From Chiloscyllium plagiosum (lineage: Eukaryota): a stretch of DNA of 64,000 bases. Location of the stretch: positions 25,618,663 through 25,682,662 of the forward strand of contig NC_057719.1 of NCBI RefSeq assembly GCF_004010195.1. The letters are read 5' to 3'. Both the position numbers and the translations under genes were made by a program. Shown piece by piece: positions 39,301-64,000 of the stretch. The number at the start of each line of letters is the position of its first letter. Position 1 is the stretch's first letter. The notes beneath the pieces are model-generated. The model saw only the letters and a list, made by a program, of their open reading frames with translations, searched no databases and was not told the origin of the DNA.

Positions 39301-39589
39301 TTTCAGGAATGTTCAGTGCTCCGGTGCAGAGAGAACGGGGAGGAGAACCATTGTGTCAGTTCTCTACATACGGTGCACGATCCTTGGATGCCTGGAGCTC
39401 CCCCATGTAGGTTATAAAGGGGACTGACAGGAGCCAAAGTAGGTCACTCAGTCATCTGAGCCTGCATCGTTATTTGATAAAGCCAGACCTGATTAGATCT
39501 TAATCTTAACTCCATATTCCTGCCTACCCCGGTAATCTTTCACCCCTTTATTTATTAAGAAACTGTCTACCTTTGCCATAAAAATATTC

Positions 39590-39712
39590 CTGAAGAAGGG
39601 CTTATGCCCGAAACGTCGATTCTCCTGTTCCTTGGATGCTGCCTGACCTGCTGAGCTTTTCCAGCAACACATTTTCAGCTCTGATCTCCAGCATCTGCAG
39701 CCCTCACTTTCT
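39590..39712 (+). mobile_element. Short Penelope-type element with minimal hammerhead core, 14-bp TSD
   Basis: CTGAAGA-a-GGGC-ttat-GCCC-GAAAC-GTC at 39590-39617; CCATAAAAATATTC at 39576-39589 and 39713-39726. Confidence 0.8.
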
Positions 39713-39994
39713 CCATAAAAATATTCAACAATTTTGCCTCCACTGCCTCTTGAAGAAGAGAGTTCCAAAGATTCAGAACCCTCTGTGGGAAATAAATCTC
39801 CTTATTTCTGTCTTTAAAGGGCGACTCCCAATTTTTAAATAATTACTCCTTGTTCCAGATTCTCCCATCAAGGGAAACATTGTTTCCACACCTACCCTGT
39901 CAAGTCTTCTCATGATCTTGAACTTTTCAATCGACTGCTGAACTCCTGCAGATGCAACCATAGCCAGTCCAGCCTTTCCTTAAAAGATGCAAAT

Positions 39995-40716
39995 GCAAGT
40001 CAATGACCACCTCTAATAAGAGACAATCTAACCACCCCTCTTGACAGTCAATGGTGTTACCATCACTGAATTCCTCTGGATCAACATTCTGTGGTTACCA
40101 CTAACCAGATACTCAACTGGACTTACCACATAAACACAGTGGCTACAACAATAGGTCAGATGCCCGAAATATTGTGGCAAGTAAATCACCCCCGGACTCT
40201 CCAATGCCTGTCCATAATTTAAAAGGCACGAGTTAAGAATGTATTGGAATACTCCCCGGTTGCCTGGAGGGATTTAGCTCCAACAACATTCAAGAAGCTT
40301 GACACCATCCAGGACAAAGCAGCTTGCTTGATTGGCACTGCATCCACTCCCTCCACCATCAATGCTCAATAGCAGCAATGTGTGCCTACAAGATGCACTG
40401 CATAAATTAACCACAGATCCTCAGACAGCACCTTTCAAACCCACAACCACTTACATCGAGAAGAACAAGGGCAGCAGACACATGGGAACATGACCATCTT
40501 CAAATTCCCCTCCAAGCCACTCACCATCCTGACTTGGAAATATATTGCCGTTCTTTCACGGTCACTGGATCAAAATCCTAGAATTCCCTCCCTAATTGCA
40601 GTGTGGATCAACCTACAGCATATGTTGGGGTTCAAGAAAGCAGCTCAGGGACAGTTAGGGATAGGCAATAAATGCTGGCCAGCCAGCAATGCCCATGTCC
40701 CATGAATGAATAAAAG
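39995..40716 (+). mobile_element. LINE (CR1/L2 superclade) 3' fragment
   Basis: Homologous to 45935-46765; includes KKLDTIQDKAACLIG. Confidence 0.8.
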
Positions 40717-41499
40717 AAACACCCTATTCCAAGTCAAAGTAAACATTCTCTAAACTGCCTCAATGCGTTTGTGTCCTTACTTAAAAAGGAAGACCAATAC
40801 TGTGCACTGTACTGCAGATATGGTTTCAACAATGCCATGGATAACTGAAACGTTATCTGCACATATGTGAATTCAATTTCTTCCCATGAAAAATAGCATT
40901 CTACTTCATTTCTAAATTACATGCTATGCTTTCATTACTGACCCTTTGTGATACGTGCAAGAGGTCAGACAGATCCCTTGGTATCTCAGAGCTCTGCAAT
41001 CTTCCCTATTTAGATAATAGGCACTAAAACAGTTTTTCGATGTTAAGTCCAAGCGGTTTTGAGTTTTCTGGGCAGATTTCTGCCATGAGGCCCAAATGTG
41101 GCATTACTCAGTCTTCAGAGCCTGCATCGTTATTTGATAAAGCCTAATTTTTAAACAATGACTCCTTGTTCCAGATTTTCCCATCAAGGGAAACACTGTT
41201 TCCACACCTACCCTGTCAAGTCTCCTTATGATCTTGAACTTTTCAATTGACTCCTGCAGAAGCAAACCTAGCCATTAACGACTTCCCCTGCCCCATCTCT
41301 CACACACTATTCTGGTTCCATCTCAGAACCTGCTATTCCCAGAGCAACCTACCACTCAGTGGATATCCGCCTAAAGACCCTTGCACCTGATGCTCAATAT
41401 GCTGTGCATCTGGATGAGCACTGGCATTCTGAAACTATCCCCGCCCAGTCATGGCTGCTTATGGAAGACAACAGCAAAGGGGAAGATGGTACTATGACT

Positions 41500-41670
41500 G
41501 GGACCTGAGGTCATAGTTAGGGGGTAGTGCAAAGGGAGTTGTTCTCATTTTCTCAGGGGAAGAGCAGAGGAACACCTGAACCTGGCAGCCTGGTCACCAG
41601 CCAGGTCAGTGCCATCTCCAGTATACGGAGGAATGTCCTGTACTGCCAAACAATAGGCTGTGCCAAGTTA
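41500..41670 (+). mobile_element. Possible Harbinger Myb-SANT-like relic
   Basis: VQRELFS..LVTSQVSAISSIRRNVLYCQ has a layout similar to the 29401-29560 relic. Confidence 0.3.
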
Positions 41671-42638
41671 AGCACCAAGTTCTTCTCTGCTACCTCACAC
41701 TCACTCCATCTCTGCTACTGCACCCAGCTGCCAACCAGATTCAGGCTCTTCCAAACTCTAGTCCTGCAACATCACCTTTTACCAGCTCTCACCCATCCCT
41801 CGACCTCCCCGTCACTAACTCTGGTATGGATTTTTCACTGTCTCCACACCCCTCTTAGAAAACCTCACCATTTTTCCCCTGCCTGCGCCTATAGGTACAG
41901 GTGTACTACCCGCCCTCATCTCACTCAACTCCTTCCTTTCTCTCCTTACATTAGAAGACAGTCTGTAACAGGACACAGTGAGTATGCAAGGGCAGAGGGG
42001 TGCATGAAATCAGGCTCCTCACCCCATGTGTGGAGAGAATCCTGGCCCCCACACATGAGGAGCTCCAGAACCACCTCCGTGGGGACACTGGAACATCCAT
42101 GACCTGTCATCTCAGGACGACTCCTCATCCCTCTGCAAATTTCACATCAACACTACTGTCAATGTTATTCACTGCACATTACTTCTAACCACTGGCTGTG
42201 GCGATTTCTCTCTCCTTCTCCTTTGGTGCCACGAGCATATCCAAGCTCATGGAAAATGATCTGCCATCAACGAAATATTTTAAAGCACTGGCAAATGAAA
42301 TTGCCCTTGGGGAAGTGCCGACAAGGTGGATTAAGCTCTACCACCAGTGGTGACGGGATAATAGGGAGGTTGGTGAGTTTGGTTGGTTGGTTTGTGATGC
42401 AGAATGATGCCAACAGCGCAGGTTCATTTCCTGTACCTTCTTGACCCTGCTGGGGTATGGACAACCCTCAGGTTAAACTCAACAGTTGTCAAATCTCTCC
42501 AATGAGAGCGCGGTGCTCTAGGACAATGGCAAATTCACTTACAGGATAATGTACTCTACACTCATCATGATCTTAGATATATTCGACTTGTGATTCCTTT
42601 TACTTATAGATTTACCAGGCTTCTGTTATAACACTAAC

Positions 42639-42802
42639 CTGCATGGATGACCTGGATGTTTGTTTCATGTTCAGAGTTCGTCTTCTGTGCCATTGGTGGA
42701 TTGAGTCCTGGATCTCGTGACTAAGTTGGCGAGTGACAGTGTGTTTGTCATAGTGTTTGATATGTTCTAGGGCGCCATAGGTAGTTGTTAAGTAATAATA
42801 AC
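42639..42802 (-). CDS. RIN3: RIN3 penultimate coding exon: (G)YYYLTTTYGALEHIKHYDKHTVTRQLSHEIQDSIHQWHRRRTLNMKQTSRSSMQ
   Basis: 164 bp, TTTCAG/GTTAGT boundaries, phase 1 to 0; matches RIN3 YYLTTTYGALEHIKSYDKITVTRQLS. Confidence 0.96.
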
Positions 42803-43071
42803 CTGAAACAGAACAAAGTCCATTAACTCACAACAATATTTAGCTATATTAAAGGATGATTTATTGCTGGATATGATAATTGTATTATTTTTCATGATGT
42901 TATTTAACATGCGTGTTAACTACATTTAAAGCATATAGCTGTGAAAACTATCCATCATTTTAAATCAATAGTAGTGCAAGTCCATTAATTTCATTACTGC
43001 TCCTTGGTTGAATGAACTCTTTCACTCTAGCTACTTAAGTAAGTTCTATATATATTACATATCTGTGTTTA

Positions 43072-43111
43072 CAGTCATCTGTCTCGATTTATTATTCGAG
43101 ACAGATGACTG
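43072..43111. mobile_element. 40-bp micro-MITE / perfect hairpin with TA flanks
   Basis: TA-CAGTCATCTGTCTCGA-tttattat-TCGAGACAGATGACTG-TA; perfect 19-bp arms including flanks. Confidence 0.6.
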
Positions 43112-43489
43112 TAATATTATTCTTTAAATCTTATTGAAGTTTCATGTTATGTCCAGTTAAAAATCTATTCTTGAATCCTTGTTCCTTCAACTACTGTGAT
43201 ACCATCTTATTTATCTTTTAACCAAAGCTGTGTATCCATGTTTGTTTTTTGGCTGTCACTCTGGCTGAACAACCACTTCATGACTTCAGTGGGCTCTTCT
43301 ACCTAATGCTAAAAGCAAAACCCCACAGCACATCCATTGCCAAGACCAGTTACTCCATCTCAGGAGTTTGTTCAGCTTTCTTGTCCACATCCTTGTCTTC
43401 CATAGCTCTGGCTCAGTTGGTAGGACTCTATTCCCTGATATTCTCATTTCAAGTCTCATTTGAGGATTTGAGCTTAAAAACCATGCTTT

Positions 43490-43797
43490 AACACCAGTGT
43501 TAAACATTTAACACATTGAAAGAGTAATGCCCTGCTGAAGGTTCCTTCTTTTGGATGGGATGTTAAACTTCTGCTTGCTTGCTTGGATGTAAAAGATTTC
43601 ATCGCATAATTGTGAAGAGGAATGGGGGACCTATCTCCTGTACCCTGATCATTGTTTGTGGGAATATACTTTGCACACATTGACTGCTGCATATCTTACA
43701 TTACAACAGTAACTGCACTTCAAAAGTACATCACTGGAGGTATTTTGAGACATCTGGCTACAGCAAGAAGTATTGTATGAATGCAAATCTTTCTTTT
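43490..43797 (+). mobile_element. Deu-SINE (SacSINE-like)
   Basis: Deu-like TCTTTTGGATGGGATGTTAAAC..GGATGTAAAAGAT; tail ACATTACAACAGT..CTTCAAAAGTAC..AATGCAAATCTTTCTTT. Confidence 0.65.
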
Positions 43798-44479
43798 GGC
43801 TTTTGTTGTTCTCTCCTACCCTTTTCAACTCTGCAACTAACCAGCATTAGGACTGGAGATTTGTGAATCTGTAAAATGGTGAAGGACATACAACATCTGT
43901 CAACTCTAAGGGTGGCTAGTTCCATAAACATAGCTGAATTTGCCAAATAGACACAGCTGAGTGGAATGATTTTTCGATTAGAAATGGAAACATTGTTGTT
44001 TCTTGTTTAATTTGGCGACAAATTATATTAACTGCTATAACTGGCTGCATGTTATAAATATTGACCTTTAACATGATGTTGCAATTGGAAGCTTTAAGTT
44101 TTCCACCCTTATAATTCTCACTTCTAATACCAATTGCTTTTTTTCTTTATTTGTGGATGGGATGTGGTGTCGCTTGCTGGGTCAGCATTGCCCGTTCCTA
44201 ATTGCCCTTGAACCAAATGGCTTGCGAGGTCATTTCAGAGGGCCACGTTGTCATATCTGCCATAGTTCGATTCAAACCCATATCCTCAGAACATTACCCT
44301 AAGGTTCTGGATTACTCGTCCAATGAGATTATCACTAGGGCACCCCTTCCCCATATCTGTCCACTCTCATTGTTGATGGGAAGAAATGAAAATACTAAAA
44401 ACCAGACTTAATATTATTGAAGGAAAACAAATATTTCTGCATTTCTAAACGGCAAAATCTGAAAGAGTAGTGAATTGTG

Positions 44480-45230
44480 AACAGAATCACGATAGACTTC
44501 AAGAGGGCGTTGACAGGTTGGTGGAATGGACAGATGGTATTTAATGAAGCGAAGTGATTTTTCTTGGTAGTAAGCACGAGGTGAGGTAATGTAAAACAAT
44601 CAGTAAAAAAAATCTAAAGCAGAGGCAGGAACAAAGAAACCTGGGGATATATGTGCAGAAGTTGTTGCAAGTGGCAAGGCAAGTTGAGAAAGTGGTTAAC
44701 ATTGCATTAGGCATTCTGTAGAAGCATAAAGATTAAAAACAAGTATAGTGAACTTCTAAAATCATCTGACCTTTCCTACAACTCTGGGCACCACATTAGA
44801 GGAAGGGGGTGAAGGTTGTAGGGAGGGCACAAAAAGATTTCTGGGAATAGTTTCAAGGATAAGGAGTTTTAGTGACATGGATGGATTGGAGAAGCTAAGT
44901 TTTTTGCCTTAGAGAAATGACGGTTGAACAGAGATTTGATAGAGGTCTTAAAATCATGAGATGTCTAGCTACAGTAAATAGAGAGGTGCTGGTCCCATTA
45001 GTGCAAGTGGGTTGGACTCAAATCACTGATTTAAGGAGTTTGACTAAAGCATCATGGATGGCTTGAAGTAAAATGTAGTGTATGGTTATGAACTAAATGC
45101 ATTGCCTGAAAGTGTGGTGCAGGCAGATTCAACAATCATTTTCTAAAGAAGAACCGGAAAAGCACCTAAATGGAGATAGAAAACACTGGACTATTGGTGG
45201 GGGAATGGGACTGTCTAAGTTACTTTTGCA
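44480..45230 (+). mobile_element. Highly degraded CR1 3' fragment
   Basis: CR1-like RLQE..DRLVEW and DLIEV motifs with many stops. Confidence 0.55.
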
Positions 45231-45329
45231 GAGAACTGTAACCATTTTCTGATAAATCTACAATTTTATTCACTGTGTTTCTTTTTCAAATTGCACGTAA
45301 AAACTAAGAAAAGGTAATCAAAATCTAAC

Positions 45330-46765
45330 GCCATCCAAATTCAATTCCAATGTAGCCAATTATCGCCCCATCACTCTACTCGAAATCATCAGTAAAGTGA
45401 TGAAAGGTGTCATCAACAGTGCTATCAAACGGTCCCTGCTCAGCAATAATCTGCTCAGAGATGCCCAGTTTGGGTTCCACCTGGGCCACTCAGCTCATTA
45501 CATGGACAAAAGAGTTCATCTCCACAGGTAAGCTGTGAGTGACTGCCCTTGACATCAAGGCATCATTCAACTGGTTGTGGCATGGAAGAGCCTGAACAAA
45601 ACTAGGATCAATGAGAATAAGAGGGGGAGCTCTCTGCTGGTTGAAGTCACACCTTCACAAAGCAAGATGATGTGGTTGTTCATCTTAGCACCAGGACATC
45701 TCTGCAGAGTTCCTCAGGATAGTGTCCTAGGCCCAACTATCTTCAAATGCTTCATCAATGACCTTCCCTCCATTACAAGGTCAAGAGTGAGTCTGTTTTC
45801 TGATGACTGCATAAGATTCAGTACCATTTGCAACTCCTCCAATTTTGAAGCAATCCATGGTCAACTGAAACAAGACCTGGACGATATTGAGTTTGGGCTG
45901 ACAAGTGGCAAGTAAGTGTGAACCACACAAGTGACAGGCAATGACCATCTCCAACAAGAGAGAATTTAACCATCACTGCTTGGCATTTAATGGAATTAAG
46001 ATCACTGAAACCCCTACTATCAACATCCTGGGTGTTACCGCGGACATTAAATCTGAACTAGAGCTGTCATATAAATATTGTGGCTATGACAACAGGTCAG
46101 ACAGAGGCTGTGAATCCTGCAGTGAGTAACTCACCATCTGGCTCCCCAAACCCTGTCCACATCTTCAAGGCGTATGTCATGAATGTAATGCAATATTTCC
46201 CACTTGCCTGTATGGGTGTAGCTCCAACAACACATAAGAAGATTGACACCGCTCAGGATAATCCCACTTGACTGGCACCACATTCACAAATATCCACCTC
46301 CTCCACTACTGATGCTTAGTAGCAGCAAGTACTATCTATAAACTGCACTGGAGGATTTCACCAAGTCTCCTTAGACAGCACCTTCTAAATCCACGACCTC
46401 AACCATCTTAAAGGACAAGTACAGTGAATACATGGGAATGCCACCCCTTATAACTTCCCTCCAGGCCACACTCCATCCTGACTTGGAAATATATTGCCAT
46501 TCTTGCAGTGTCACTGGGTCAAAATCCTGGAACTCTCTCCCTTCCTAACACCGCCTTGACTCGAAACAGATCAAGAAGATGAATCATCACCACCAAGAAA
46601 TGAGCGAATGTGGACAGACAGCAAATGCCAGTCTTGTGTGTGCCTACACCAAGTGGACTTCAAGAAGGCAGTTAGTTCACCACTAACTTTCTCCAAGGCA
46701 GTTAGCAATAGGCACTAAATACAGGCCCAGCCGTCAAAGCCCATCTCACCTGAATGAATAACAAA
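45330..46765 (+). mobile_element. LINE RT fragment (CR1/L2 superclade)
   Basis: ANYRPITLLEIISKVM, QFGFH, VPQDSVLGPTIF..FINDLP, LFSDDC. Confidence 0.85.
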
Positions 46766-46902
46766 AAAGTATTTGTGTTATGAAGTCAAATTTAAAGTAA
46801 AGAAAGAATGAAGTCAATTTATTTAACATGTGTTCCTCACTAATCCCCATCAGGGAGTATAGTTGGCACACCATACTGCACTTTAAATGAGAGTAACGTT
46901 AC

Positions 46903-47034
46903 CTTCTCCTAAGTGTAATGAAGGATCCAGCAGCTCCATCATATATTCCACATCCAGAAGCAATGACGTCAGGTTACTCCTTGCCAGCACGTACATTAAC
47001 ACAGGGAGGAAATCGTCAGCACCATATGGCTTTG
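46903..47034 (-). CDS. RIN3: RIN3 exon, VPS9 domain: KPYGADDFLPVLMYVLARSNLTSLLLDVEYMMELLDPSLHLGE(G)
   Basis: 132 bp, TTTTAG/GTAAC boundaries; GADDFLP catalytic motif of VPS9 Rab5 GEFs; close to human RIN3. Confidence 0.96.
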
Positions 47035-47494
47035 CTAAAACAGAAGGAGATTTGGAAAGTGAATTAGCATCTTCTGTTAGTTCATAGAACTGTCAACAGA
47101 TCGCTGCAGTGAAAGAGCAATGTTCAAAGAAAATGATATGTTTTGAAAGCGTTGCACTGCTTTTGGATTTATTTTATGTGCACGTTTGTATGTGTAAACA
47201 GACCTTCAGGAATTATCCCAGATAAAAATCCTCAGCATGCTGCCTATTACAGAATATGCTTGAATTTGATTTTCAATTTGCTGGCATTCTTCTCAAATTA
47301 AAATCTGCCATTGGTGACACACTAAAAACCCATTCTTCAAACAATCTGAAGGTGCCAATAAAATGCAAAACTTGAAGTCTGTCAATAAAGATGCAATTTA
47401 TGTTAAATATTATCAACATAAATCAACTGTCTTATTCACCAAAGCTAGCTTCTAGGCAACACTGAGGAAACTATTCTGTATGTATTACCATAAA

Positions 47495-47682: not shown

Positions 47683-49073
47683 TGCTTAACAATTTATTTT
47701 TATTACAAAATCTCATGTTAATGCTCATTAAATGTTATGGCCTTTCCTTAAATTCTTTCTTGAACACATTACTGTATAGGGTTTGTGATTGCAAATGGCA
47801 CTGCTTCAAAGATGGGCCACAGGTGTGAATGTCAGTAGATCCATTAACTGTGGGGGCATCTCTCAGCCAAACCTGAACCTGTCCTTACCAACTTTCCTCC
47901 GTGTGATATCTCCATGAAGGAACAACTAGTGATCAAGCAAATGAGTACAAGTTGATTTTTGTTTTTGTCTCTTCTCCAAGGATCCACCATGTGGTACCGT
48001 ATAAAATGCAAGAGATTATTCTATTTACATGATGAAACTGACTGAAACGGGGCTGTCTTCTTATTAGGACAAAGTCTAATTGCTATTGTCGAGAGAAACT
48101 GGCAATCATTTGAAAATTTTCTGAGTTTGGATAATGAGGAACAACAATAAATAACTACTTTTGTCTCGTCATGCTGGTGACAACTTGAAGACGGATGTCT
48201 GCACTGTGGAGGAAGAATGCTAGATATACTGGCCCGGATTTTGCTGTAGTAATGATAATGAAATTGTCAGTGTTTTCCTTTATTATGTCTCTAAAATTGA
48301 CAGCAACGTCTGGAGTTTGTACACATGCTGCTCGTAGTTCTATCTTTCTCCAGAGGAGCAATGCTGAAGATCCCTCAGATTTCAATCAATTTGAAGTCAC
48401 TGAACTGATAAGAACATGCTTTTCTACTTGATAATCCTCGATGTAGAAAGCATTGAAAAAGTTACACATTATTGAATGAGATTTTACATACCACACAACA
48501 CTCATAATTACTGCTGGAAAATCTCCCTTGGCCTTGAAAAACTCTTCACAATCTTGGAATTTCAAATTTCCACAGCATGATTAAAAAAGTTATCAAAATA
48601 TTGTTTAAAATGGTTGCTTTCTTCACCTTGTTTTAATTCTTTATTGCACTTTCTGCAAAATGTGACTGCAAGTGAAATAAGTGAGTGCATACTTTGGACT
48701 TCTGTGTGAATTTCTGCAGTGTGGTTGACTGCCCACCCCACTTGATGATATTACTATTGCTGGATGCTGGATCCTGTTGACTTAGCACCAGATTCAGACT
48801 GACATTGGGAAAGGGAGAATCCAAGCTAAGAGAGTGCTAGAGTTTTGTGAATAACTTCATTCAATTAAGCAGCAAGTGCTGCTCCTTCACCATTAACTGA
48901 GAAACCTGGACCATTTGCTAGACTTTCATGATTTTTTAAATAATAATATTTATGGAAAGGCTCACTGGCCCTAATGCAAGCTGCTTGGAGCGCCTCACAT
49001 TTGAAAGGACCAGTCGACAGTCAGAAAATTTTGAGAACCTTTGATTTTAATAATTAACTTAATGATTTCCTTA

Positions 49074-49282
49074 ATGACTGCTCCACATAGCCGACAAAGA
49101 GACAGCCATAGTTAGCTCAGCTATCTCTCCATCCCCGAGGCTCCCAGCCTCATTCCTGATGAAGGGCTTTTTCCCGAAACATCTATTTTCCTGCTCCTCG
49201 GATGCTGCCTGACCTGCTGTGTGTTTCCAGCACCACTCTAATCTTGACTCTGATCTCCAGCATCTGCAGTACTCACTTTTGC
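49074..49282 (+). mobile_element. Short Penelope-type element with hammerhead core, 16-bp TSD
   Basis: CTGATGA at 49156-49162, GAAAC-ATC at 49176-49183; CTTAATGATTTCCTTA at 49058-49073 and 49283-49298. Confidence 0.8.
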
Positions 49283-51444
49283 CTTAATGATTTCCTTATC
49301 CATTCTAATATTACCTAAAAGGTATTATCCTAAATGTAAAAATGGAAGAAAATTGCTAACACAAAATTTATTCATCATTGCGCGCTTAATTTGCATCTAC
49401 CGTCACATAAACAACAAAGCCCAGTGGAATTGTGAATGTGAATCGCAATATTATGGGTCCTCTTATTTAGAATGTTGACCTAAACCTCTCTAGGAAACTG
49501 AATAAATTTGGATAAGTTGCCTTACGGTCTGACTTGCCTATGCAGAAATAGAACATGTTTCAAACTACTGTGGTATCTTTTGGATTCTGCACCAACAGCC
49601 TGTAAGTGGTCCTATTCCTGTTGGTAAATCACATTTAGGCTACCTATTCAGAAATCTCACAGAAAACCAAGTATTTCAACAATAATTTACACTTAATTGC
49701 ATTTAGCAACCAAACTAAGACCCCTCAAGTAAGAAAGTTAAACCTCACAACTCAACTTAGCTATTACCAGATTAATGATGGAATTTGGCTATGATTCCAA
49801 ACAACAGTGTCTGTCTCTGGATGTATCCAGGGTTTGATCCTTGTGTCATGTTGTTGTCCAGAATTCTGCTAAGGGAGAGTTCTAGAATTGTCCTCTTATT
49901 CAGTTTTTTGTTCTTCAGGTACATGATGTGAAAGTATTGATGATTCTTTAGATTCCTTGCATCTAAAATACTGGACTGCAGCTTCCTTCCTTATCAGAAG
50001 TAGCTTCTTCATTCCTTGTTATATTTGGCCTTAAGTGTCTATTTGAAGACACAGCTTTCCCGTGATTAACTCCTTAAATTCCTCAGCAGGGCAGACATTT
50101 ATCCTTGTGGTGTGAGGCATCCAGTTATCAAGCTGGTGTCAAAATAGTTTATGGAGCCACAACTCCTTTTTTTCTCAGACATGGCTAATTGTTTTCAATC
50201 TGTTTGTCCCTTAACAGCTTATTTCCGTGCAGAGTTATTGTTGCTTCTTTCCATGTATAACAGTTTATTCTTCAGTCTATGAACAGTTATTAAAGTTCTG
50301 AAATCTAAAATATCACACTACATTCCTTGTGCTCAGGAAGAAGTTTTTTGGCATCCAGATATTTGAACTCCTGCAGCAGTTTAATCCCCTTGCCTTCTAT
50401 GAATTAAATGCTGTAATCTTGCACTTACAAACATATGCTAAATAACTTGCCCATCTGTGTTAAATATATTTATCTCCCCTCAGGCTATGCTCAGTCACAT
50501 GCAACACATATCTTATGTGTTACATGTGACTTAACAATAATATAAACCAGACCAGCATCCTTCAAAAAAATGTTGATGAGATATATTGGACGTTATTCCT
50601 TTTAGAAACTGATCATATAGACTGGGTTGTAGCAAAGAATGACTCTTGGTTCAGTTAGATTCTAAGCCCCTGAGCTTGTGTGCATGCAAAGCTTTAACAA
50701 GCTTATTTACAGCTTCAGATTAACACGGCCAGTTAAAGATGTTTGGAAAAATGGCTTGTGTAAAATTAAGGTGTATGAGTGTGGCAGGGACTTGGAATGA
50801 TTTGTGAGATGGTTGGTTGGACTATTGCATTAAATGAGCAGGTTGCTTTTGACATTTAGGATGAACTGAGACATTCTGCATTATATGTGACTACTACATT
50901 CATTCATAGCATGATACTCGAAGTGGCATCATTTATTAACAGACTGGATGCACTCCATTACAGTCTCCTTCACTTACTTTATCCATACTAATTTAGCAGA
51001 GTTACTAACAACAGGCACATAGCACGAAGCATCTGCCAGTATGTAAGGGTCAATTAGTACACATTACACATCAAACACTCTAGAGGTTTAGGATAGTTCT
51101 TTGTATCTCATTAATCACGCTCACAGTATTTCTTAACGTATGATCTTTAGAATTTATTTCTGATAAGTGACTATGGGTTTAATTTGCATTACTTCATACT
51201 TCTTTGGCAAATTATGCAGAGTGTTGGAAGCATTTTGGAGAATCATGAACACAGTTACACTTCTGCAATGAATGGATTTTTGAGTAGCATTTGAACCTAG
51301 AGCTTTTCAACTCAGAGGAATGAGCACTCCCAACTGAGACACTCAGGTCCCCAACCAATCCGAGGAAGTGTCTCTCCCACAATTTTCTCATCATGTCTCT
51401 TGCCGGTACTAGAAATCAGGGGATGCAGGATCTGACAGCAATCT

Positions 51445-51910: not shown

Positions 51911-52772
51911 TTGGACATCAAAAGGGTCTAAAGGTATCACAGCAGTGGAGATCAGGTTTACCATTCATTGTTTATAGTAAATAAATTACATTAGTGCTAA
52001 TGCGGCCACTCCAAGCAGTGGGAATGATACAAATAACATCTGAGATATTGTATTACAGGTTGGGGCTCTCTCTGAGGCCTATACTAGATTGACACAAGAT
52101 GTATTCTGCTAAGACTTGTTGTAGCTAATAGGGTCTAGCAATGAAGCCCAAGGACAAATGGAACTGGACCCTGAATAACCAGCATTAACTTTTGGCATTT
52201 AATAAGGCTTCGCAAGGCCTTAAACAGAGCAGTCTCCACAGACAGACTGTGAACTCATGAAGAAGGGTCACTGGACCCAAAATGTAAACTCTGCTTTCTC
52301 TTTACAGATGTTGCCAAAACAGCTGAGTTTTTCCAGCAATTTCTGATGTTGGTTTATACAGGGAACTCCCCCTGACTTGGCCTTATGTTGCGAAGATGGC
52401 TGGGAAGTCCCCCACTGCTATTTAATGGTTCAGCCTAAATGAGGTCCGGCCTGGCTGGCCCTGTGGGGTTTCCCTGTCGGTAGTACTGGGATTTCACCCC
52501 CAGGGATTTAGGTTCTTTGGTGTCTGGGTCCATTTATTAGATGCACCAGTTCTTTGTTCCAGCACAAGCTGTCTTTATTTCTCTGAACATGTTGGTGCCT
52601 CGTGCAGGATGGAGAAAGGCTACAACAAGGGTTGATGTTTGTGATTTCATATGGCAAGCTCCCAAATTCAGGCACACTGTCCATGAGAGGCAAAGCCTGT
52701 GCTCACAACATAAAAGAGAGAAATGATTGAAGACTTTTCAGACCAGCTCTGTTTTATTCTATTGGAGTTGGG

Positions 52773-55224: not shown

Positions 55225-56835
55225 TTATATGGAGTCTGAAGGTACAGCCTCAGTGTGGGTAGAGTTGAGGTACCACAAAGGTAAACAAGACCTTGATGGG
55301 AGGTATGTACAGGCCACCTAACAATAGTCAGGATGTGTGGCAGAAAATAAATCAGGAGATAGAAAAGACATATAAAAATGGCAACATTACAATAATCAAG
55401 GGGGACTTCAAATAGCAGGTGGACTGTGAAAATCAGATTAGCAGCAAATCCCATGAAAAGAAATTAATGGAATATCTACAATATAGTTTTTTTTGAGCAG
55501 CTTGTGGTGGAGCCCAATAGAAAACAGGTTATTCTGGATTTGGTGAATGGGTAATAAGGCAGGCTTAATTAGGGAGCTAAGATGGAGGAACCCCTAGGTG
55601 GCAGTGCCCACACTATGATAGAATTCACCCTTCAATTTGAGATGAAGCAACTTGAATTAGATGTAACAGTCTTACAACTGAGTAAAGTTAACTACAAAGG
55701 CATGACAAAGGAACTGGCCAAAATTGATTGGAATGAAAGTTGAATAGGAAAGACAGAGAAACTGCAATGGCAGGAGGCACTGCAGAAATTCATTCAAAGG
55801 AAGAAAAAACATACTAAGGGGAGGGCGAGGCAACCAAGGTGGACAAGGGAAGTCAGGGACAGCGTAAAAGCAAAGGAAAAAAACATACAACATGGTGAAG
55901 ATTAGTGGGAAGCTGGAGGATTGGGAAAAACCAGCAGCGGACAACATGAAAAGCAATAAACAGGGAGAAGATGAAACGTGAGGGTAAGCTAGTTTGTAAT
56001 ATAAACAAAAGTTCCGTTTTTAGATATCTAAAAGGTAAGAGTGGGGCAGGTGTTGATAGTGGACTACATGAAAATAAGGTTGGAGAAATAGTAATGGCAA
56101 GCAAAGAACTGGTGAAAGAACTGAATATGTACTTTACATCAGTTTTCCCAGTGGAAGACATGAGTAGCGTACCAGAACTTGAATAGTCAAAGGGACCATC
56201 ACTAAGGAAAAGCGGCTGGGGAAGCTGAAAGATCAGGAGGTGGATAAGGCACCCAGACCAGATGAAGTACACATCAGGGTTCTGAAGGAGCTAGCTGAGG
56301 ACATTGTCGCAGCATTGGCAGTGGCCTTTCAAGTATCACTGGAGTAATGGAGGATCCCAGAGTTTGGAAAATGGCTAATGTAACACCCCTGGGTAAGAAG
56401 AGAGGCTGGCAGAAAACAAGAAACTATAGGCCAGTTAGACTGACCTTGGTCATTGGCAAGGTTTTCGAGTTAATTATTAAGGATGAAATTGTGGAGTACT
56501 TGCAAGCGCATGGTAAAATAAGATGGAGTCAGCATGGCTTCATCATGGGGAGGTCACGCCTGACAAATCTGTTAATTCTTTGAGGAAGTAATGAACAAGT
56601 TAGACAAATGAGAGCAGTGAATGCAAGATAACAGCTCATGGTGTTAGGGGCTAGCACTGGCATGGATAGAGAACTGATTGCTGGGGATGTTGATAAAGGG
56701 TTATTTTTCAGGAATGCAGCTAGCGACTAGTGTAGTTTCACAGAATCAGTGTTGGGACCACAACTATTCATATTGTACATTAATGATCCGCATGAAGGAA
56801 TTGTGATCGAATGGTGGAGCAGAATCGATGAGCTA
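55225..56835 (+). mobile_element. CR1 ORF2 fragment (endonuclease to RT) with internal deletions
   Basis: GDF, ELNMYFTSVF, WKMANVTP..NYRPVRLT..QHGFIMGRS. Confidence 0.88.
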
Positions 56836-57244
56836 AACTAAATCAACTATATACTATGATGAATTATAAATGGCTTGCAGTGAATCCTGGACAATGTTTT
56901 GAAACTAAAATTCTATTGCTATTTCTAAACCACGTAATGCTTTCAAGGTGTATACTCTGAAAAAATTAATAAAGTTTCTGCCTTAACTTTCCCTGTAGCT
57001 CATCTGCACAGTAGTTCGAAAAGTATTTGATCCCGTGCCAGGAAGTGTTTTACTTTCTCCGACTGATGTAACTATGAGTCAGGTAGGTTAATTTCAGGAG
57101 CCAAGCAGAAAAAGATATCTCTGCCTTCTTAAATATTTTTCTTTCTCAGTAACATGAATCAGCTTATGTTGTAAAGTTTACAAAAGAAACTACAATACTT
57201 TTACTAACATTTTCTTTTAAAGTAGTCAGCTGTCTGTAGGCCTG

Positions 57245-57475
57245 AGCCGGGTGGGATGGCCAGTGGTCACAAGGCTGGAGGGGACTGGGGTAGTGAGCTG
57301 TTGGTAGGCGTGAGGTGAATGGGATGGCCAGTGGTCATGGTGCCAACTGTTGGTAGGGCTGAGCTGAGCGTGATGGCCAATAGTCACAGGGCTGGAGCAG
57401 AGTGGGATGGCCAGCGGTCACAGGGCTGGAGCAGAGTGGGATGGCCAGCGGTCACAGGGCTGGAGTGGAATGGCT
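57245..57475. repeat. GC-rich tandem repeat, 34-bp unit GGGCTGGAGCAGAGTGGGATGGCCAGCGGTCACA
   Basis: Two identical adjacent units plus degenerate copies. Confidence 0.85.
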
Positions 57476-57815
57476 GGTTGGCTAGGGGCAGAGGGTTTGG
57501 GGCCCAGTGTGGTTAGCCTGTCACAGATCCTGAGCACGGCAGTGGGGGGAGGAAGAGTGAGACCTTGTGTAGAAAACCAACTGCATGGAGAGACTGCAAG
57601 CTTTCGGGACTGTAATGTTTCTCTCTGAACTTTATTTCTTTATCTTCCTAGTTTCTACTCTGATGGACTGTAATGTGGAACTTTTAGCTTTTCTCTTCAT
57701 TTTTCTATTTTTGTACCTAATCTATTTTAGTACGTAAGATTTGGCACCATGTGTAGTGGCATTGTACACATTTCACTGTACTCCTGTACTTTGTAGTTGA
57801 GTACATGTGACAATA

Positions 57816-57958
57816 GCTCCCCCACATTCCTGATGAAGAGCTTAGGTTCGGAATGTCGACTCGTCTGCTCCTTGGATGCTGCCTGACCCGCTGTGCTTTT
57901 CCAGCACCACACATTTTGACTCTAATCTCCAGTATCTGCAGCCCTCGTTTCCTCTGAA
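57816..57958 (+). mobile_element. Short Penelope-type element with degenerate hammerhead core, 11-bp TSD
   Basis: CTGATGA at 57830-57836, GAAA mutated to GGAA; ATGTGACAATA at 57805-57815 and 57959-57969. Confidence 0.75.
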
Positions 57959-58804
57959 ATGTGACAATAAACCTCATTCTAATTCTAAAGAACCTGTGTT
58001 GCAATAATGCTGTCCACTGAGGCAAAGAAACTGAAATTTTAAGTTAATAAATACATTCTGCAGAGTAAGAGAGTGTGGCTGGGGTTTTGAGGCCAGCTTC
58101 TGTTGAGAAAAGTGATAGGTATTGGCTCATGTGTCAAAAAAATATGGTTTTCAACATATAGTGTAATTCGGTATAGATTAAAGCTGTGATCAAATACACC
58201 CTTGGGTTGAAAAATAAATTGCAACACTTATTTATGTTCCTCTATTAATTGCGCGCTTTAAAGCAAAAGGGGAACACATAATTTTTCTTCCCTCTTTGCA
58301 TTCTTATCTATCACTTCAACAAGGACATTTTTCAAACATTTTAGAAAATCTATTTTGCCATTATGGAGCTGTTGTAGAGAGCATTGCATCGGGCAGTTTC
58401 ATCCAATAGGTTTCTAGGTCATCCAGGGAATCAAAGGCTGCTTGTAATATTTGAGGGCTGCATTAATCCATGTTCCATGTGATATAAGAGATTCCAGTTC
58501 CACTTCTGTTATCAGAATGCACTGCCAATCAATTTCTGGCTGTAGCTAAGTCACACTTCTGATATTTGACACCCAGAGTGTTGAGAGAGGTGGGAAGGTT
58601 GGAGGGTCTTTTGTGTTTAAAATCTTGGTCAAGTGGCCATTATTTGTCAATGACAGATACAGCCAGTGGGACTGGTCACTGGGCAGCCTGACTCTCTTCT
58701 GTGGCTATGCCTGCACATGGGTAGCCCTAGTAACCCTAGATGAGATGCATGCAGAGTCTCTGAATAGAAAGGAAAAGAAATTGGCAGATTCTGGAAGTCT
58801 GAAT

Positions 58805-58985
58805 TAAAACAGAAAGCACTGTAGAGACTCAGCAGGTCTTGCAGCATCTGTGGAACAGGAAACAATTAATATTTTGAATCAAGTATAGGCTGGGGGTTGA
58901 AGAAGGGTCATTGGGCTTGAAACATTAATTCTGTTTCTCTCTCCACAGATGCTGCCAGAAGCGCAGAGATTCCTGCTACAGCAGA
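58805..58985. mobile_element. Old inverted pair of Penelope-type short elements
   Basis: GCAGCATCTGTGGA..AATTAATATTTTGA is mirrored by TGAAACATTAATT..TCCACAGATGCTGC. Confidence 0.6.
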
Positions 58986-60269
58986 TTTTGTAACCAATGG
59001 GCACTAGACAAATTATAACACACTGCAGTCATTGAAATAACATTCCCATTTATTTTAGTATGTCTGATTTTCTGAGGAGTGATAATTTCATGCAGATTAC
59101 CACTCCACACTTTCATTTTACCAAAGTAGGAAGTTCTGGTCAGGGCTGCCTTAGAAATGCAGCGCTGCACTTCCATATTGACAGTTCTGTAGTGTAAGCC
59201 TTGCAGAGGGAGGCAAACCATGGCCCCCTTCCCCTCTTTCACAACTGTTAGCTGCTGTGGTCTGAAACTTTAAGCCACATTGGCAGCTGCTGTCACAGGA
59301 ATATTATATACAGTAAGCATGATGTTCAGGTTCTTGGAGGAGGGTGCTCAGATGGACTCAGGGTAGGAGTGGGTGCCATGTATGTAGGGAGACAGCTGGG
59401 GAGAGTGTCAGGTGCCAGGTAGGTAGGGTGCTAGTCTAAATAGAGTATGAGCACAGGAGGGGATACAGTATCAGAAGTATAATGCCAGGTGAGTAGGGGG
59501 TAAGGTGCCAGACATAGGGTATCAGATGGGTAGTGAGTAGGTTGCCAGCCAAATAGGATGCCAGTTGGTTAGGATGTGGTGGAAAGGATTGGCTGCCAAG
59601 TGGGAAGGTGCCAGGGTTGTGAGGTAAGTAATGCACTGATTCGGGTAGGTCAGGACTGGTAGGAGAACTCGGAACGTATAGCAGGGGGGGGCAGTGTCGG
59701 TCCAGTCTGGTGGACGGAATGGGGTTGGGGGATGGTGTAGAGCCAGGTCCAGCAGGGTGGGAGAAAGGACAAGCCTGATGAGTGGGAGGGTAAATATATG
59801 GTATGTATGGGGTTATTTAATAGTTACTTTGGAGATAGGCGGTTTATTTAAAAGATTAACATTTCCTGCACTACTTCATTTCAGTGGATATCTTCGATTT
59901 AAATTTATTGCGGGTGTCTCTTTTTAATAGGACATTCTTATTCAAAGCTTGAGGAGCCATATGGTCTTTTTCTGCTCAACATTCTTTGTTAATTATGCTC
60001 TTAATATAAATAGGTTATCGCACAGTCTGTAAACTGTCCCAACTGTGAGTACATTGTATCATAAGCCTGACTTCGGACTTGTAGATAGTGGGCAGGCTTT
60101 GGGGAGTCAGAAGGCGAGGTACCACAGTTATACTCAGCTATACTGTGGCCTCCTCTTGCAGCCACAGTATTTACATGGCAAGTCCAGATTTCCATTTCTG
60201 GTCAATGGTAACCCACAGGATGTTGATAGTGAAGAATTTGGCAATGGTTTTGGTAATAGATAAGAGTCA

Positions 60270-60920
60270 TAGAGCTTTTTGCAACAGGGAGAAAAGCCCT
60301 TTGACCTATTGTGTCCATGTAGTCATCAACCATCCACCTAGTCTCTTCCCATTTTCCAGCTCTTGGCACATTGCCTTTAATATGACAGGGCTTCAAATGC
60401 TCATCTAAATAGTTCTCAAAAGTTTTGATGGTTCCTGCCAATACCACCCTTTTAGGCAGTCTGTTCCAGTATTCACCATCCACAAAGTGAGGGCAAGGCT
60501 TTTCTCAAGTCCCCTCAAAACTACCTTAAAAGTGGACTTCCTGGTTATTGACTCATCTACTAAGGGCAGGGGTTGGGGGGGGGGGGGGGGGTGGGGGAAA
60601 GAGGGGGTTGCAGGGAACCATCTTTCTATCGAATCTACCTATGCCCCTCAGAGTTTATACGCCTCAATCAGGTCCTTCCTTGGCCTTCCCTGCTCTCAGA
60701 AATCATCCCCAATTGATCTCGCCTCTCTTCATAGCTGAATCACTCCAGCTCAGACAACACCCCATTGAATCGCTTCAGCATCCTCTTGTGCAATCACGCC
60801 CATCCTATAGTGTGGCCACTAGAACTGCACTAAGTACTGCAGTTGAGGCCTAATTAACATTACATACTTCTCCAACATAACCTCCTTGCCCTTGTATTCA
60901 ATGCCTTGACTAATGAAGAG
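60270..60920 (-). mobile_element. CR1 3' fragment
   Basis: Minus-strand WNRLPKRVVLAGTIKTFENYLDEHL. Confidence 0.7.
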
Positions 60921-61970
60921 AAATAATTCCAGGAGCAGCAATTACTGTTTTATATGCTGTTGCATTGTTTTGGAAATTCGGAGAGAAAAAAAAAGTCAAA
61001 ACAGCAACACTTTTAAAAGGGAGAGGAACAGACAGAGCAGCACATGGTCAGGTCAGTGCAGGAGACAGAGAGAGAAAGAAACCCACACTGTTAACTGACA
61101 CAGCTGTGAACCTGCACAGTTACTGCCTTGGCTGTTGAATTCATGTATCACTGGACATCGGAGTACATCTCGGAAAATTAACAAACAGTGAAATTCACAA
61201 CTGATCTTGGAGAAACCTGTTTGGGAGAGGTCACAGCACAGAGACAGATAAATGAATAGTTTTAAATGTGGCTTTGGGGCCTTACCGTATGTCTGCAGTA
61301 GTGAATAGAGTGTGTTCCTTCTTGATTATATATCTCTTGATTAAACTTAAAAATATAAGCCATAAGTATTAAGTTAGCCTGGAACAGTGTTTTGTAGAGG
61401 AATAAGACGGTGCTATTTTCTGGGTCTGCAGATTGGAAGAAGCAAAAATGGCCTTTAGTAGAGTGATATATGTTTCTTGTCAGATGTGGGAGTTCAGGGA
61501 GAGTTTAGGTGTTACTGAGGATTATATCTGCAATAAATGCCATTGGTTGCGAATCCTATCAGATCGAATGGAAGAGTTGTAGCGACAGTTAGAGGCAATG
61601 AGGAATTTACAAGAGCAAGGGGGTGTGATGGATAGTAGTTATAGGAAGGGAGAAAAGCCACAGATATAGTCACATCGATAGGTTAACTCCAGGAAAGGTA
61701 AGAGAAGTAGGCAGGTAGTATAGGAGTCTTCTGTGGCTATCTCCATTTCAAATAAGTATGCCGTTTTGGAAAATGTAGGGGGTGATGGATTCTCAGGGGA
61801 ATGTAGCACGAACAACCAAGTTTATGGTATCAAGACTGGCTCCAATGCAATGAGGGATACATCGGGTTCCAAGACATCAGTTGTGTTAGGGGACTCTCTA
61901 GTCCAAAGTACAGACAGAGGTTTCTGTGGCCAGCAGCAAAAAATCAGAGTGGTGTGTTGTTCCCCTGGTG

Positions 61971-62171
61971 TTTAAAAATGTGTTGCTGGAAAAGCGCAGC
62001 AGGTCAGGCAGCATCAAAGGAACAGGAGAATCGACGTTTCGGGCATAAGCCCTTCCTATGCCCGAAACGTCGATTCTCCTGTTCCTTTGATGCTGCCTGA
62101 CCTGCTGCGCTTTTCCAGCAACACATTTTTAAGTTCTGATCTCCAGCATCTGCAGTCCTCACTTTCTCCTA
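61971..62171. mobile_element. Inverted (hairpin) Penelope-type insertion inside CR1 ORF1, 15-bp TSD
   Basis: 61972-62047 is the perfect reverse complement of 62057-62132; TSD GTTGTT(C/T)CCCTGGTG at 61956-61970 and 62172-62186. Confidence 0.88.
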
Positions 62172-62828
62172 GTTGTTTCCCTGGTGCCAGGATCAAGATG
62201 TCTCAGAGAGGATGCAGTATGTTCTCAAGGGGGAGAGGGGTCAGCAGGAGGTCATTGTACACATTGGAACCAATGACATAGGAAGGGAAAAGTTTGAGAT
62301 TGTGAAGAGAGATTACAGAGAGTTAGGCAGGAATTTACAAAAGAGATTCGTGAGAGTAGTAATATCTGGATTACTCCCAGCGCTACAAGCTAGTGAGGGC
62401 AGGGATAGGAGGATAGAGCAGATGAATGTATGGCTGAGGAGCTGGTGTATGGGAGAAGGGTTCACATTTTTGGATCATGGGAAGCTCTTCTGGGGTAGAA
62501 GTGACCTGTACAAGAAGGACAGATTGCACCTGAATTGGAAGGGGACTAATATACCGGCAGGGAGATTTGCTTGAGCTGCTCGGGAGGATTCAAACTAGTA
62601 AGGTGGAGGGTTGGGACCCAGAGAGATAGTGAGGAAAGAGATCAATCTGAGACTGGTACAGTTGAGAAAACAAGCGAGTCAAACAGTCAGGGCAGGCAGG
62701 GACAAAGTAGAGAGCAAGGTAGGATTGATAAATGAAACTGCATTTATTTCAATGCAAGGGGCCGAAGAGGGAAGGCAGATGAACTCAGGGCATGGTTAGG
62801 AACATGCGACTGGGATATCATAGTTATT

Positions 62829-62928
62829 CTTTTTTATTCCTGATGAAGGGCTTTTGCTCGAAACGTCGATTTCGCTGCTCCTTGGATGCTGCCTGAACTG
62901 CTGTGCTCTTCCAGCACCACTAATCCAG
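62829..62928 (+). mobile_element. Short Penelope-type element with intact hammerhead core inside CR1 ORF2, about 13-bp TSD
   Basis: CTGATGA-a-GGGC-tttt-GCTC-GAAAC-GTC at 62840-62867; TATCATAGT(T/A)ATT at 62816-62828 and 62929-62941. Confidence 0.8.
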
Positions 62929-64000
62929 TATCATAGTAATTACAGAAACATGGCTCAGGGATGGACAGGACTGGCAGCTTAATGTTCCAGGATACAAACG
63001 CTACAGGAAAGGAGGCAAGAGAGGACAGGGAGTGGTGTTTTTGATAAGGGATAGCATTACAGCTGTGCTGAGGGAGGATATTCCTGGAAATACATCCAGG
63101 GAAGTTATTTGGGTGGAACTGAGAAATAAGAAAGGGATGATCACCTTATTGGGGTTGTATTATAGACCCCCTAATAGTCAGAGAGAAATTGAGAAACAAA
63201 TTTGTAAGAAGATCTCAGCTATCTGTAAGAATAATAGAGTGGGGGATTTTAACTTTCCAAACATAGACTGGGACTGCCATAGTGTTAAAGGTTTAGATGG
63301 AGAGGAATTTTGTAAGTGCGTACAATAATAATATCTGATTCATTATGTGGATGTACCTATTAGAGAAGGTGCAAAACTTGACCTACTGTTGGGAAATAAG
63401 GCAGGGCAGGTGACTGAGGTGTCAGTGGGGGAGTACTTTGGGGCCAGCAACCATAATTCTATTAGTTTTAAAATAGTGATGGAAAAGGATAGACCAGATC
63501 TAAAAGTTGAAGTTCTAAATTGGAGAAAGGCCATTTTTGACTGTATTAGGCAAAACTTACAAAAGCTGACTGGGGACAGATTTTCACAGGTAAAGGGACG
63601 GCTGGAAAATGGGAAACCTTCAGAAATGAGGTATCAAGAGTCCAGACACCGTATGTTCCTATTAGGGTGAAAGGAAAGGCTGGTAGGTGTAGGGAATGCT
63701 GGATGACTGAAGAAATTGAGGGTTTGGTTTGGTTAAGAAAAAGAAGGAAGCATATGTCAGGTATAGACAGGATAGATCGAGTGAGTCCTTTGAAAAGTAT
63801 AAAGGCAGTAGGAGTATACTTAAGAAAGAAATCAGGAGGGCAAAACTGAGACATGAGTTAGCTTTGGCAAATAGAGTTAAGGAGAATTCAAAGGGTTTTT
63901 ATAAATACATTAGGGACAAAAGGGTAATTCGGGAGAGAATATGGCCCCTCAAAGATCAGCAAGGCAGCCTTTGTGTGGAGCTGCAGGAGATACTAAACGA

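What the first reader, a model, noticed from the sequence alone, without database searches (positions are those of the whole stretch)
39576..62941. Family of 100-210-bp mobile elements carrying minimal hammerhead-ribozyme cores with clean TSDs
Seen: four related non-coding insertions (39590, 49074, 57816, 62829), each flanked by an 11-16-bp direct repeat. Each carries a CTGA(T/A)GA - helix II (GGGC/GCCC) - GAAAC-GTC type core, complete at 39590 and 62840 and mutated in the other two. There is no conventional helix III, only the palindrome ACGT. Established: Penelope-like elements carry minimal type I hammerheads whose palindromic helix III lets them cleave as dimers. Inference: these are non-autonomous, ribozyme-bearing Penelope derivatives (retrozyme-like). 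Three of the four begin at or within about 15 bp of the core, suggesting ribozyme processing or structure helps define the inserted unit. Helix I looks weak (about 2-3 bp), so activity is uncertain.
Basis: partly seen in the sequence, partly recalled or inferred. Interest (0 to 1): 0.7.

Follow-up and report, generated by a model that had tools for sequence, protein, structure and literature searches.

The report
Short Penelope retroelement ends with hammerheads
The short inserts are real, but they are stub copies of the hammerhead-bearing end repeat of a very abundant Neptune-type Penelope-like jumping gene in a shark-like genome, a kind already described, and the ribozyme's cut site does not set where they begin.

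Summary
Observation confirmed: four related 100-209-bp inserts with 11-16-bp TSDs and a minimal hammerhead core, intact in two.

They are Penelope-like element (PLE) end repeats. They show two 3' ends about 35 nt apart (the PLE 'tail') and an inverted arm. Copy 49074 starts with an inverted 48-bp piece of PLE reverse transcriptase. All 47 loci fetched with its peptide motif are relatives of one RT-GIY-YIG ORF, and one near-complete element has a core 25/28 identical to ours.

About 71,000 contigs of one run lie on the repeat, and 5' ends pile up 4 nt upstream of the core. That is 32 nt upstream of the predicted cut, so templates were uncut. They are not retrozymes: no tandem units in the window, no canonical hammerhead.

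Best model: cDNAs primed at the tail run off a defined RNA 5' end (inferred). Cleavage is untested; core CpGs are decaying. The scan already noted this family many times elsewhere in this genome. Known kind, low interest.

The parts
39590..39712 (+). Copy c1: PLE end repeat from the hammerhead core to the long (tailed) 3' end. Intact core 39590-39617, predicted cut after 39617; the 4 nt before the core are shared with the TSD
39576..39589 (+). c1 left TSD (14/14 with 39713-39726), 79% AT
49074..49121 (-). Inverted 48-bp fragment of a PLE reverse-transcriptase gene (10 of 13 residues identical to the RT of L001 and L024) at the 5' end of c2, inside the TSD
   Evidence: summed depth about 100x single copy
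49122..49282 (+). Copy c2 end repeat, from 34 nt upstream of the core to the tailed 3' end. Core at 49156, mutated (palindrome and helix I broken). TSD 49058-49073 / 49283-49298, 16/16
49150..49154 (+). Family-wide 5'-end pile-up, centred on 49152 (4 nt before the core, 5' edge of helix I); fits a recalled initiator consensus
   Evidence: loose ends (359, 559 and 59 contigs) and joints
57816..57958 (+). Copy c3: starts 14 nt before the core (57830), core mutated, tailed. TSD 57805-57815 / 57959-57969, 11/11
61971..62056 (-). Copy c5 left arm: inverted, tail-less, starts inside the core.
   Evidence: (I4, 76 nt 100% complementary)
62057..62171 (+). Copy c5 right arm: starts in loop II, tailed. 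TSD 61956-61970 / 62172-62186, 14/15; interrupts a LINE ORF1 (GDSL-like) remnant
62829..62928 (+). Copy c4: 7 nt of filler, then the end repeat with intact core 62840-62867, ending at the short (tail-less) 3' end. TSD 62816-62828 / 62929-62941, 12/13; interrupts a LINE endonuclease remnant
9670..10466 (+). Different PLE family (context): broken ORF end (helix-turn-helix and endonuclease region) followed in sense by a degenerate minimal hammerhead at 10393
5613..5868 (.). Different family (context): the same head-to-head architecture, tailed arm on minus and tail-less arm on plus, degenerate cores, possible 9/11 TSD

Best explanation
The inserts are single-event retrotransposition products of a Neptune-type, endonuclease-bearing Penelope-like element. 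Only the terminal repeat (pLTR, with or without the roughly 35-nt tail) was copied. Mechanism: (1) The element's GIY-YIG/RT protein nicks AT-rich DNA on both strands, 11-16 bp apart, which gives the TSDs (TSDs shown; enzyme inferred from PMC11167929). (2) Reverse transcription starts inside the RNA at one of two sites that bound the tail (two 3' ends shown; internal start inferred from PMC11167929). (3) The template is not cut by its hammerhead (shown: the core 5' of the cut is present in c1-c4). (4) Most cDNAs end about 4 nt before the core, most likely because the RNA begins there at a promoter in the pLTR. The pile-up is shown; its cause is inferred, at about even odds. (5) Priming from the second nick adds an inverted arm, either a second end repeat (c5) or a piece of the ORF (c2) (structures shown; order of events inferred). 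After insertion the copies decay neutrally.
For: Two 3' ends 34-38 nt apart, with the tail on one arm only in c5, as in PMC8557442 and PMC3846280. The inverted piece of c2: 48 matches to its peptide pattern in 47 loci, and 47 of 47 loci are tblastn relatives (E<1e-5, HSP>=35 aa) of an ORF with RVT_1 and GIY-YIG hits and a CX4CxxC linker. 10 of 19 such loci with >=1.5 kb downstream have a sense minimal core 1.1-1.3 kb on. The L001 core is 25/28 identical to c1, and L001 has an inverted pLTR at its 5' side. The family continues upstream into a shared C-rich tract in 350 and 525 contigs. Summed depth drops 39x (X1) and 27x (X11) within about 28 nt upstream of the core, after staying at 3-4 million from the 3' end bins to the core bin. 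12 of 15 shown joints are strand switches with one side at 49150-49154, where no target DNA is involved. Core CpG positions are changed in 7-20% of depth.
Against: No contiguous ORF-plus-terminus of this shark family was seen: no genome is held and the lay shows only 30 letters of loose ends. The RT piece in c2 could come from a sister PLE family. The loci were chosen by the peptide motif, so that match is partly by construction; the RT context and hammerhead likeness are not. Pfam hits are below curated cut-offs (E 5e-5 to 1e-3), and 2 of 6 ORFs had none. The depth drop can be inflated by alignment edge effects and by subfamilies diverging upstream. In D. virilis the start site lies 46 nt before an intron that ends at helix I, not 4 nt before the core. 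The initiator match is post hoc (1.2% of window positions fit).
Confidence: 0.8

Rival explanations
1. Dedicated non-autonomous element: the roughly 125-bp unit carries its own internal promoter, is transcribed from solo copies and is re-mobilised in trans by the PLE protein, like a polymerase II SINE.
For: Copies starting at the core outnumber longer ones about 30-40-fold by summed depth. The Penelope promoter is internal and in the pLTR (PMC2377424). pLTR sequence alone suffices in cis (PMC3846280). Non-autonomous Chlamys derivatives exist.
Against: 5' ends vary (-4, -4, -14, -34, inside the core). The family runs on upstream in hundreds of contigs. c2 holds ORF sequence. In PAc the minimal template extends about 55 nt beyond the insertion's 3' end, so a solo copy may lack the binding site.
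Confidence: 0.13
2. Non-LTR retrozyme: tandem arrays self-cleave to monomers that circularise, and solo copies are their offspring.
For: Retrozymes are related to PLE pLTRs, occur in one chondrichthyan and have monomeric offspring (bioRxiv 10.64898/2026.07.22.740005). Some unclassified joints (table 5c) could be head-to-tail.
Against: No tandem copy in the window. The hammerhead is minimal, not canonical. Inserts are not permuted at the cut site but colinear, ending at the two tail boundaries. 13 of 15 shown joints are strand switches.
Confidence: 0.04
3. Same PLE origin, but the 5' pile-up is not a start site. It comes from the folded ribozyme or protein-bound RNA blocking 5' trimming, from a splice boundary at helix I as in D. 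virilis, or from ATT microhomology with AT-rich targets. This is a rival to step 4 only.
For: The pile-up coincides with the 5' strand of helix I. The c1 TSD shares 4 nt with it. PAc prefers ATT targets. An AG after a pyrimidine tract lies at 49146-49147. The D. virilis intron ends at helix I.
Against: Arm-to-arm joints also sit at 49150-49154, without target DNA. The monomer fold is weak. No shared exon-like loose end at 49148 is among the 18 rows shown, though 752 rows were not shown.
Confidence: 0.4
4. Hammerhead cleavage defines the inserted unit.
For: The motif is conserved with compensatory changes across lineages. PAc's hammerhead cleaves with protein help. 8 of the 12 joints starting at 49150-49154 rejoin at 49185-49197, just past the predicted cut.
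Against: c1-c4 include the 28 nt 5' of the cut. PAc ribozyme mutants insert normally and no RNA reads ended at the cut. c2's private changes at 49184 and 49188 clip alignments at exactly 49185 and 49189.
Confidence: 0.05

Closest known systems
Minimal hammerheads (min-HHR) in pLTRs of metazoan PLEs (Cervera and de la Pena 2014, PMC4209133)
   Same: CUGANGAH, bulged base before helix II, G10.1-C11.1, GAAA-C-G-U-C palindrome, short helix I, mostly solo motifs ascribed to truncated PLEs. The Culex and D. virilis entries also have a 2-bp helix I.
   Different: Helix II is 4 bp, at the short end. No shark entry was found in the searchable supplement. Abundance is far higher than the 4,000-9,000 motifs reported for coelacanth and frog.
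Insertion units of endonuclease-positive PLEs, Neptune type (Craig et al. 2021, PMC8557442; Arkhipova et al. 2013, PMC3846280)
   Same: Strong 5' truncation, adjacent inverted copy, 30-40-bp tail on one end, TSD, sense hammerhead in the pLTR.
   Different: Most copies are the bare end repeat with a sharp 5' boundary at helix I, which I did not find stated in the passages read. TSDs are 11-16 bp against 8-10 bp in the rotifer.
PAc (Poseidon, Anolis) in vitro system (Frangieh et al. 2024, PMC11167929)
   Same: AT-rich targets (4 of 5 TSDs are 73-85% AT), two RT start sites bounding the tail, both strands extended, uncut RNA used. The long 3' end is 115-119 nt from the start of helix II here, against 111-118 nt in PAc.
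   Different: Different clade; nothing here was assayed.
Non-LTR retrozymes (Cervera and de la Pena 2020, PMC7229834; bioRxiv 10.64898/2026.07.22.740005)
   Same: Small, non-coding, type I hammerhead, PLE-related, long TSDs.
   Different: Retrozymes are tandem arrays with canonical hammerheads and circular RNAs; these are solo or inverted copies with minimal motifs.

Membership tests
min-HHR of metazoan PLEs | Core CUGANGAH ... GAAA-N-palindrome-NUH with G10.1-C11.1 and a bulged base | tested here: met
   c1 and c4; broken in c2 and c3
min-HHR of metazoan PLEs | Helices I and II supported by compensatory change | tested here: met
   13 sequences (4 window, 9 from related loci): 7 of 8 pairs change on both sides, score 0.68 against 0.25 shuffled and at most 0.27 slid. 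Helix II pairing was part of the selection for most loci, helix I was not; sequences are related. Within the shark family no compensatory change reaches 8%.
min-HHR of metazoan PLEs | Self-cleavage as dimer or with protein help | not testable with these tools
   The predicted lowest-energy c1 homodimer keeps helix II but pairs the GAAA and cut-site region in another register; weak evidence
Endonuclease-positive PLE insertion (Neptune type) | Target-site duplication | tested here: met
   5 of 5 copies, 11-16 bp
Endonuclease-positive PLE insertion (Neptune type) | Optional 30-40-bp tail on one end | tested here: met
   4 of 6 arms long, 2 of 6 short, 34-38 nt apart
Endonuclease-positive PLE insertion (Neptune type) | Adjacent inverted 5'-truncated copy | tested here: met
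   c5; 13 of 15 shown joints are strand switches
Endonuclease-positive PLE insertion (Neptune type) | RT plus GIY-YIG ORF contiguous with this terminus in this genome | tested here: inconclusive
   Only a 48-bp inverted RT piece in c2; ORF plus near-identical core seen in related loci L001 and L029; no genome held
Endonuclease-positive PLE insertion (Neptune type) | Zn-finger-like CX2-5CxxC linker between RT and endonuclease | tested here: inconclusive
   Present in the relatives L001 and L024; not visible for the shark family. Shared by Neptune and Nematis, so 'Neptune' is the likelier label, not a tree result.
Non-LTR retrozyme | Two or more head-to-tail units, each with a hammerhead | tested here: not met
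   None among 5 window copies; genome-wide not excluded, 51 of 66 joints not shown
Non-LTR retrozyme | Canonical type I hammerhead with loop-loop contact | tested here: not met
   Minimal motif, 2-bp helix I, no Rfam match
Non-LTR retrozyme | Monomeric linear and circular RNAs | not testable with these tools
   The one raw RNA run laid gave 0 reads, which is no test
Polymerase III SINE | tRNA-, 5S- or 7SL-derived head | tested here: not met
   No such Rfam match over the inserts

The most novel reading that the evidence does not exclude
The roughly 125-bp unit is the complete leader of the PLE RNA, from a start site 4 nt before the hammerhead to the internal RT start, so the genome holds on the order of 10^5 'strong-stop' cDNA insertions. 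Solo copies keep the promoter and seed a polymerase II, ribozyme-headed SINE-like lineage. Head-to-head arms are joined through the ribozyme's own helix I complementarity, or through the cut RNA product, giving a genomic trace of what the PLE hammerhead does in vivo.
Probability: 0.2. Interest if true: 0.55.

Novelty: new member of a known kind. Interest (0 to 1): 0.2.

Why it matters
As it stands it adds a very abundant shark family to a known class and corrects the label 'retrozyme'. Its use is as material: tens of thousands of junctions with a sharp 5' boundary could test where PLE RNA starts, whether inverted arms arise by priming at both nicks, and whether the hammerhead ever cuts in vivo, which the PLE papers read here leave open.

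Tried and rejected
No whole genome was held, so no genome-wide consensus, tree or array search was possible.

The 30-nt core pattern found 0 matches in viral, metagenome and prokaryote collections. The peptide pattern found 0 in viral contigs.

Protein searches with the short RT-like peptide did not confirm it: 1 candidate and no hit, and two spurious repetitive proteins. It also did not match the RT of the other (Poseidon-like) family. A frame through the c2 hammerhead found no protein. No feature-based look-alike result exists for the peptide.

Rfam has no model that scores this motif, and monomer folding is no better than shuffles.

No RNA holder was listed. The raw single-cell run X22 gave 0 reads from about 6% read, and X19 is only guessed to be RNA; neither bears on expression.

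Supplement searches for shark entries or RT motifs gave nothing. File 1 of PMC4209133 could not be searched and the bioRxiv supplements are closed; either could list this family. Literature searches for a shark PLE hammerhead description gave nothing specific. Repbase and Dfam could not be searched and may hold it.

RT stalling at helix II was rejected as the cause of the pile-up, because the ends lie beyond the whole motif.
Full report
Observation. Repeats this good occurred at 0 of 300 random positions (narrower search than the real one). A minimal-hammerhead descriptor hits only c1 (39590) and c4 (62840) in the window, against 0.03 hits per random window. c2 and c3 have core changes. The shared parts are 74-97% identical between copies. 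c4 and c5 interrupt LINE remnants. Rfam has no matching hammerhead model, and monomer folding is unremarkable.

Host. No genome is held. A broken PLE ORF at 9670-10466 is 81% identical to a protein annotated from a carpet shark, so the genome is shark-like. That element belongs to another family and has its own degenerate minimal hammerhead at 10393, in sense after the ORF.

PLE hallmarks. The six arms end at two places 34-38 nt apart: four long and two short, with c5 long on one arm and short on the other. Craig et al. (PMC8557442; 12 passages read) and Arkhipova et al. (PMC3846280; 12 passages) describe this unit: 5' truncation, adjacent inverted copy, optional 30-40-bp tail. A second family at 5613-5868 has the same architecture. 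Frangieh et al. (PMC11167929; parts 1-2 of 4 and passages) showed in vitro that a PLE cuts AT-rich DNA on both strands, starts reverse transcription at two internal sites bounding the tail, and uses uncut RNA. Four of five TSDs here are 73-85% AT; c5's is 40%.

Link to the coding element. The first 48 bp of c2 (49074-49121) are not part of the end repeat. On the minus strand they give a 14-residue peptide that I recalled as a PLE RT motif. Protein searches could not confirm so short a piece. A degenerate DNA pattern for 10 of its residues gave 48 matches in 47 metagenome loci. All 47 are tblastn relatives of the L001 ORF, which has RVT_1 and GIY-YIG hits below the curated cut-offs (4 of 6 ORFs tested had a hit) and a CX4CxxC linker. 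Of 19 loci with at least 1.5 kb downstream, 10 have a sense minimal core 1.1-1.3 kb after the motif and 9 do not. L001 has a 3' pLTR and an inverted 5' pLTR, and its core is 25/28 identical to c1. So one PLE lineage carries both the peptide and this hammerhead, and c2 holds both inside one TSD. The only common variant in the 48 bp is synonymous in that frame, though it is also a CpG change. Not shown: a contiguous ORF-to-terminus copy in the shark, or that the RT piece is from the same subfamily.

Family-wide picture (c2 as reference, 80% likeness). 71,318 contigs of X1, 81,234 of X11 (another organism) and 7,486 of X19 lay on it; X22 gave none. Summed depth in X1 is 12 on the flanks, 1,200-1,400 on the RT piece, 8.0e4 at 49126-39, 7.0e5 at 49140-53, 3.1e6 at 49154-67, 4.2e6 at 49266-79 and 233 at 49294-307. 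The tool warns that this is not a copy number. Among 18 of 770 loose-end rows shown, 49152 has 359, 559 and 59 contigs with unrelated AT-rich flanks, so many copies start 4 nt before the core. 49122 has 350 and 525 contigs with a shared C-rich upstream sequence, so the family also continues. Of 15 joints shown (66 in all), 13 are strand switches and 12 have one side at 49150-49154. CpG positions in the core are changed in 7-20% of depth, including G12 (17%), comparable with a CpG outside the core (13-26%, partly subfamily variation); this fits neutral decay. An X11 contig spans the left junction of c2, so this insertion is shared by the two organisms.

The ribozyme. c1 and c4 fit the published min-HHR consensus (PMC4209133; parts 1-2 of 4 and part 2 of supplement file 2 read). 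Across four window copies and nine motifs from related loci, 7 of 8 pairs in helices I and II change on both sides (caveats in the membership table). The motif is therefore a conserved structure of the lineage. Whether it cuts is untested: published min-HHRs cut poorly as dimers, PAc's needs its protein, and 8 of 9 frog dimers did not cut. Dimer cleavage by many such motifs (Lunse et al. 2017) is recalled, not read. Cleavage cannot set these 5' ends, because the predicted cut is 32 nt downstream of the pile-up and c1-c4 keep the part 5' of it.

Mechanism. Shown: TSDs, two 3' ends, uncut templates, inverted arms, an ORF piece in c2, and a 5' pile-up. Inferred: nicking and priming by the PLE protein, internal RT starts at the tail boundaries, and second-nick priming for inverted arms. 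Least sure is why cDNAs stop at -4. I favour an RNA 5' end: the base is the A of a recalled initiator consensus (1.2% of positions fit), Penelope's promoter is internal to the pLTR (PMC2377424; 12 passages), and arm-to-arm joints share the boundary. Earlier notes of this scan proposed the same before I wrote it down. Against it, D. virilis starts further upstream and has an intron ending at helix I. Protection by the folded RNA, a splice boundary and ATT microhomology remain possible.

Comparison. It works like, and belongs with, truncated endonuclease-positive PLE insertions bearing min-HHRs. It fails the retrozyme definition: tandem units with canonical hammerheads in PMC7229834 (12 passages), and two or more tandem units in bioRxiv 10.64898/2026.07.22.740005 (parts 1-3 of 5), which itself notes that most PLE insertions are 5'-truncated with one terminal repeat. 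PLE expansion in a shark was reported in bioRxiv 10.1101/443036 (2 passages). Searches found no description of this family; repeat libraries and some supplements were out of reach.

Verdict. Real, correctly spotted, a new member of a known kind, and already noted many times by this scan in the same genome (99 notes fit 'hammerhead'; which of them concern this same family I judged from their summaries only). Interest 0.2. What this window adds is the inverted RT piece that ties the stubs to a Neptune-type coding element.

Noticed in passing
window 9670-10466 (+): Broken Poseidon-like PLE ORF end followed by a degenerate minimal hammerhead at 10393 (6-bp helix II, 3-bp helix I, GAAA changed). 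The clade name is recalled.
   Followed up: partly
window 5613-5868: Second hammerhead-bearing family as a head-to-head pair with an AGCT-type palindrome and a roughly 34-nt tail on one arm.
   Followed up: partly
window about 4390-4480 (-), 23241-23326 (+), 26700-26760 (-), 52258-52343 (+), 58800-58990: Third, older family with decayed cores and a 5-bp helix II; two look like inverted pairs. It shares a middle motif with the main family, which may inflate the depth peak.
   Followed up: partly
joints, 49150-49153 to 49185-49192: The commonest arm-to-arm joints lie within about 1-2 nt of the helix I register and just past the predicted cut. Either cDNA ends join through helix I complementarity (or a cut RNA is used), or alignments are clipped at c2's private changes. 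Unresolved.
   Followed up: partly
window 61972-62132: Both arms of c5 share a base that is rare in the family (under 8%), so they were copied from one template or from each other.
   Followed up: partly
window 32797-33105 (-): Exon-like ORF with a Ras-association domain (Pfam RA, E 4e-8; RIN-like by recall). All five main-family copies have their main arm on the plus strand, antisense to it if the gene spans them.
   Followed up: no
window 62150-62173 and c1, c2 3' ends: The tail ends in a pyrimidine run plus AG, resembling a 3' splice site; an ATG downstream of the cut site could be the parent ORF's start.
   Followed up: no
window 30180-30883; N gaps 27696-27722 and 29678-30177: 28-bp minisatellite next to an assembly gap.
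   Followed up: no
L001 1005-3663: Near-complete Neptune-type PLE in a metagenome contig: inverted 5' pLTR, RT-linker-GIY-YIG ORF, 3' pLTR with a 4-bp helix I hammerhead; a better candidate for a cleavage assay than the shark copies.
   Followed up: partly
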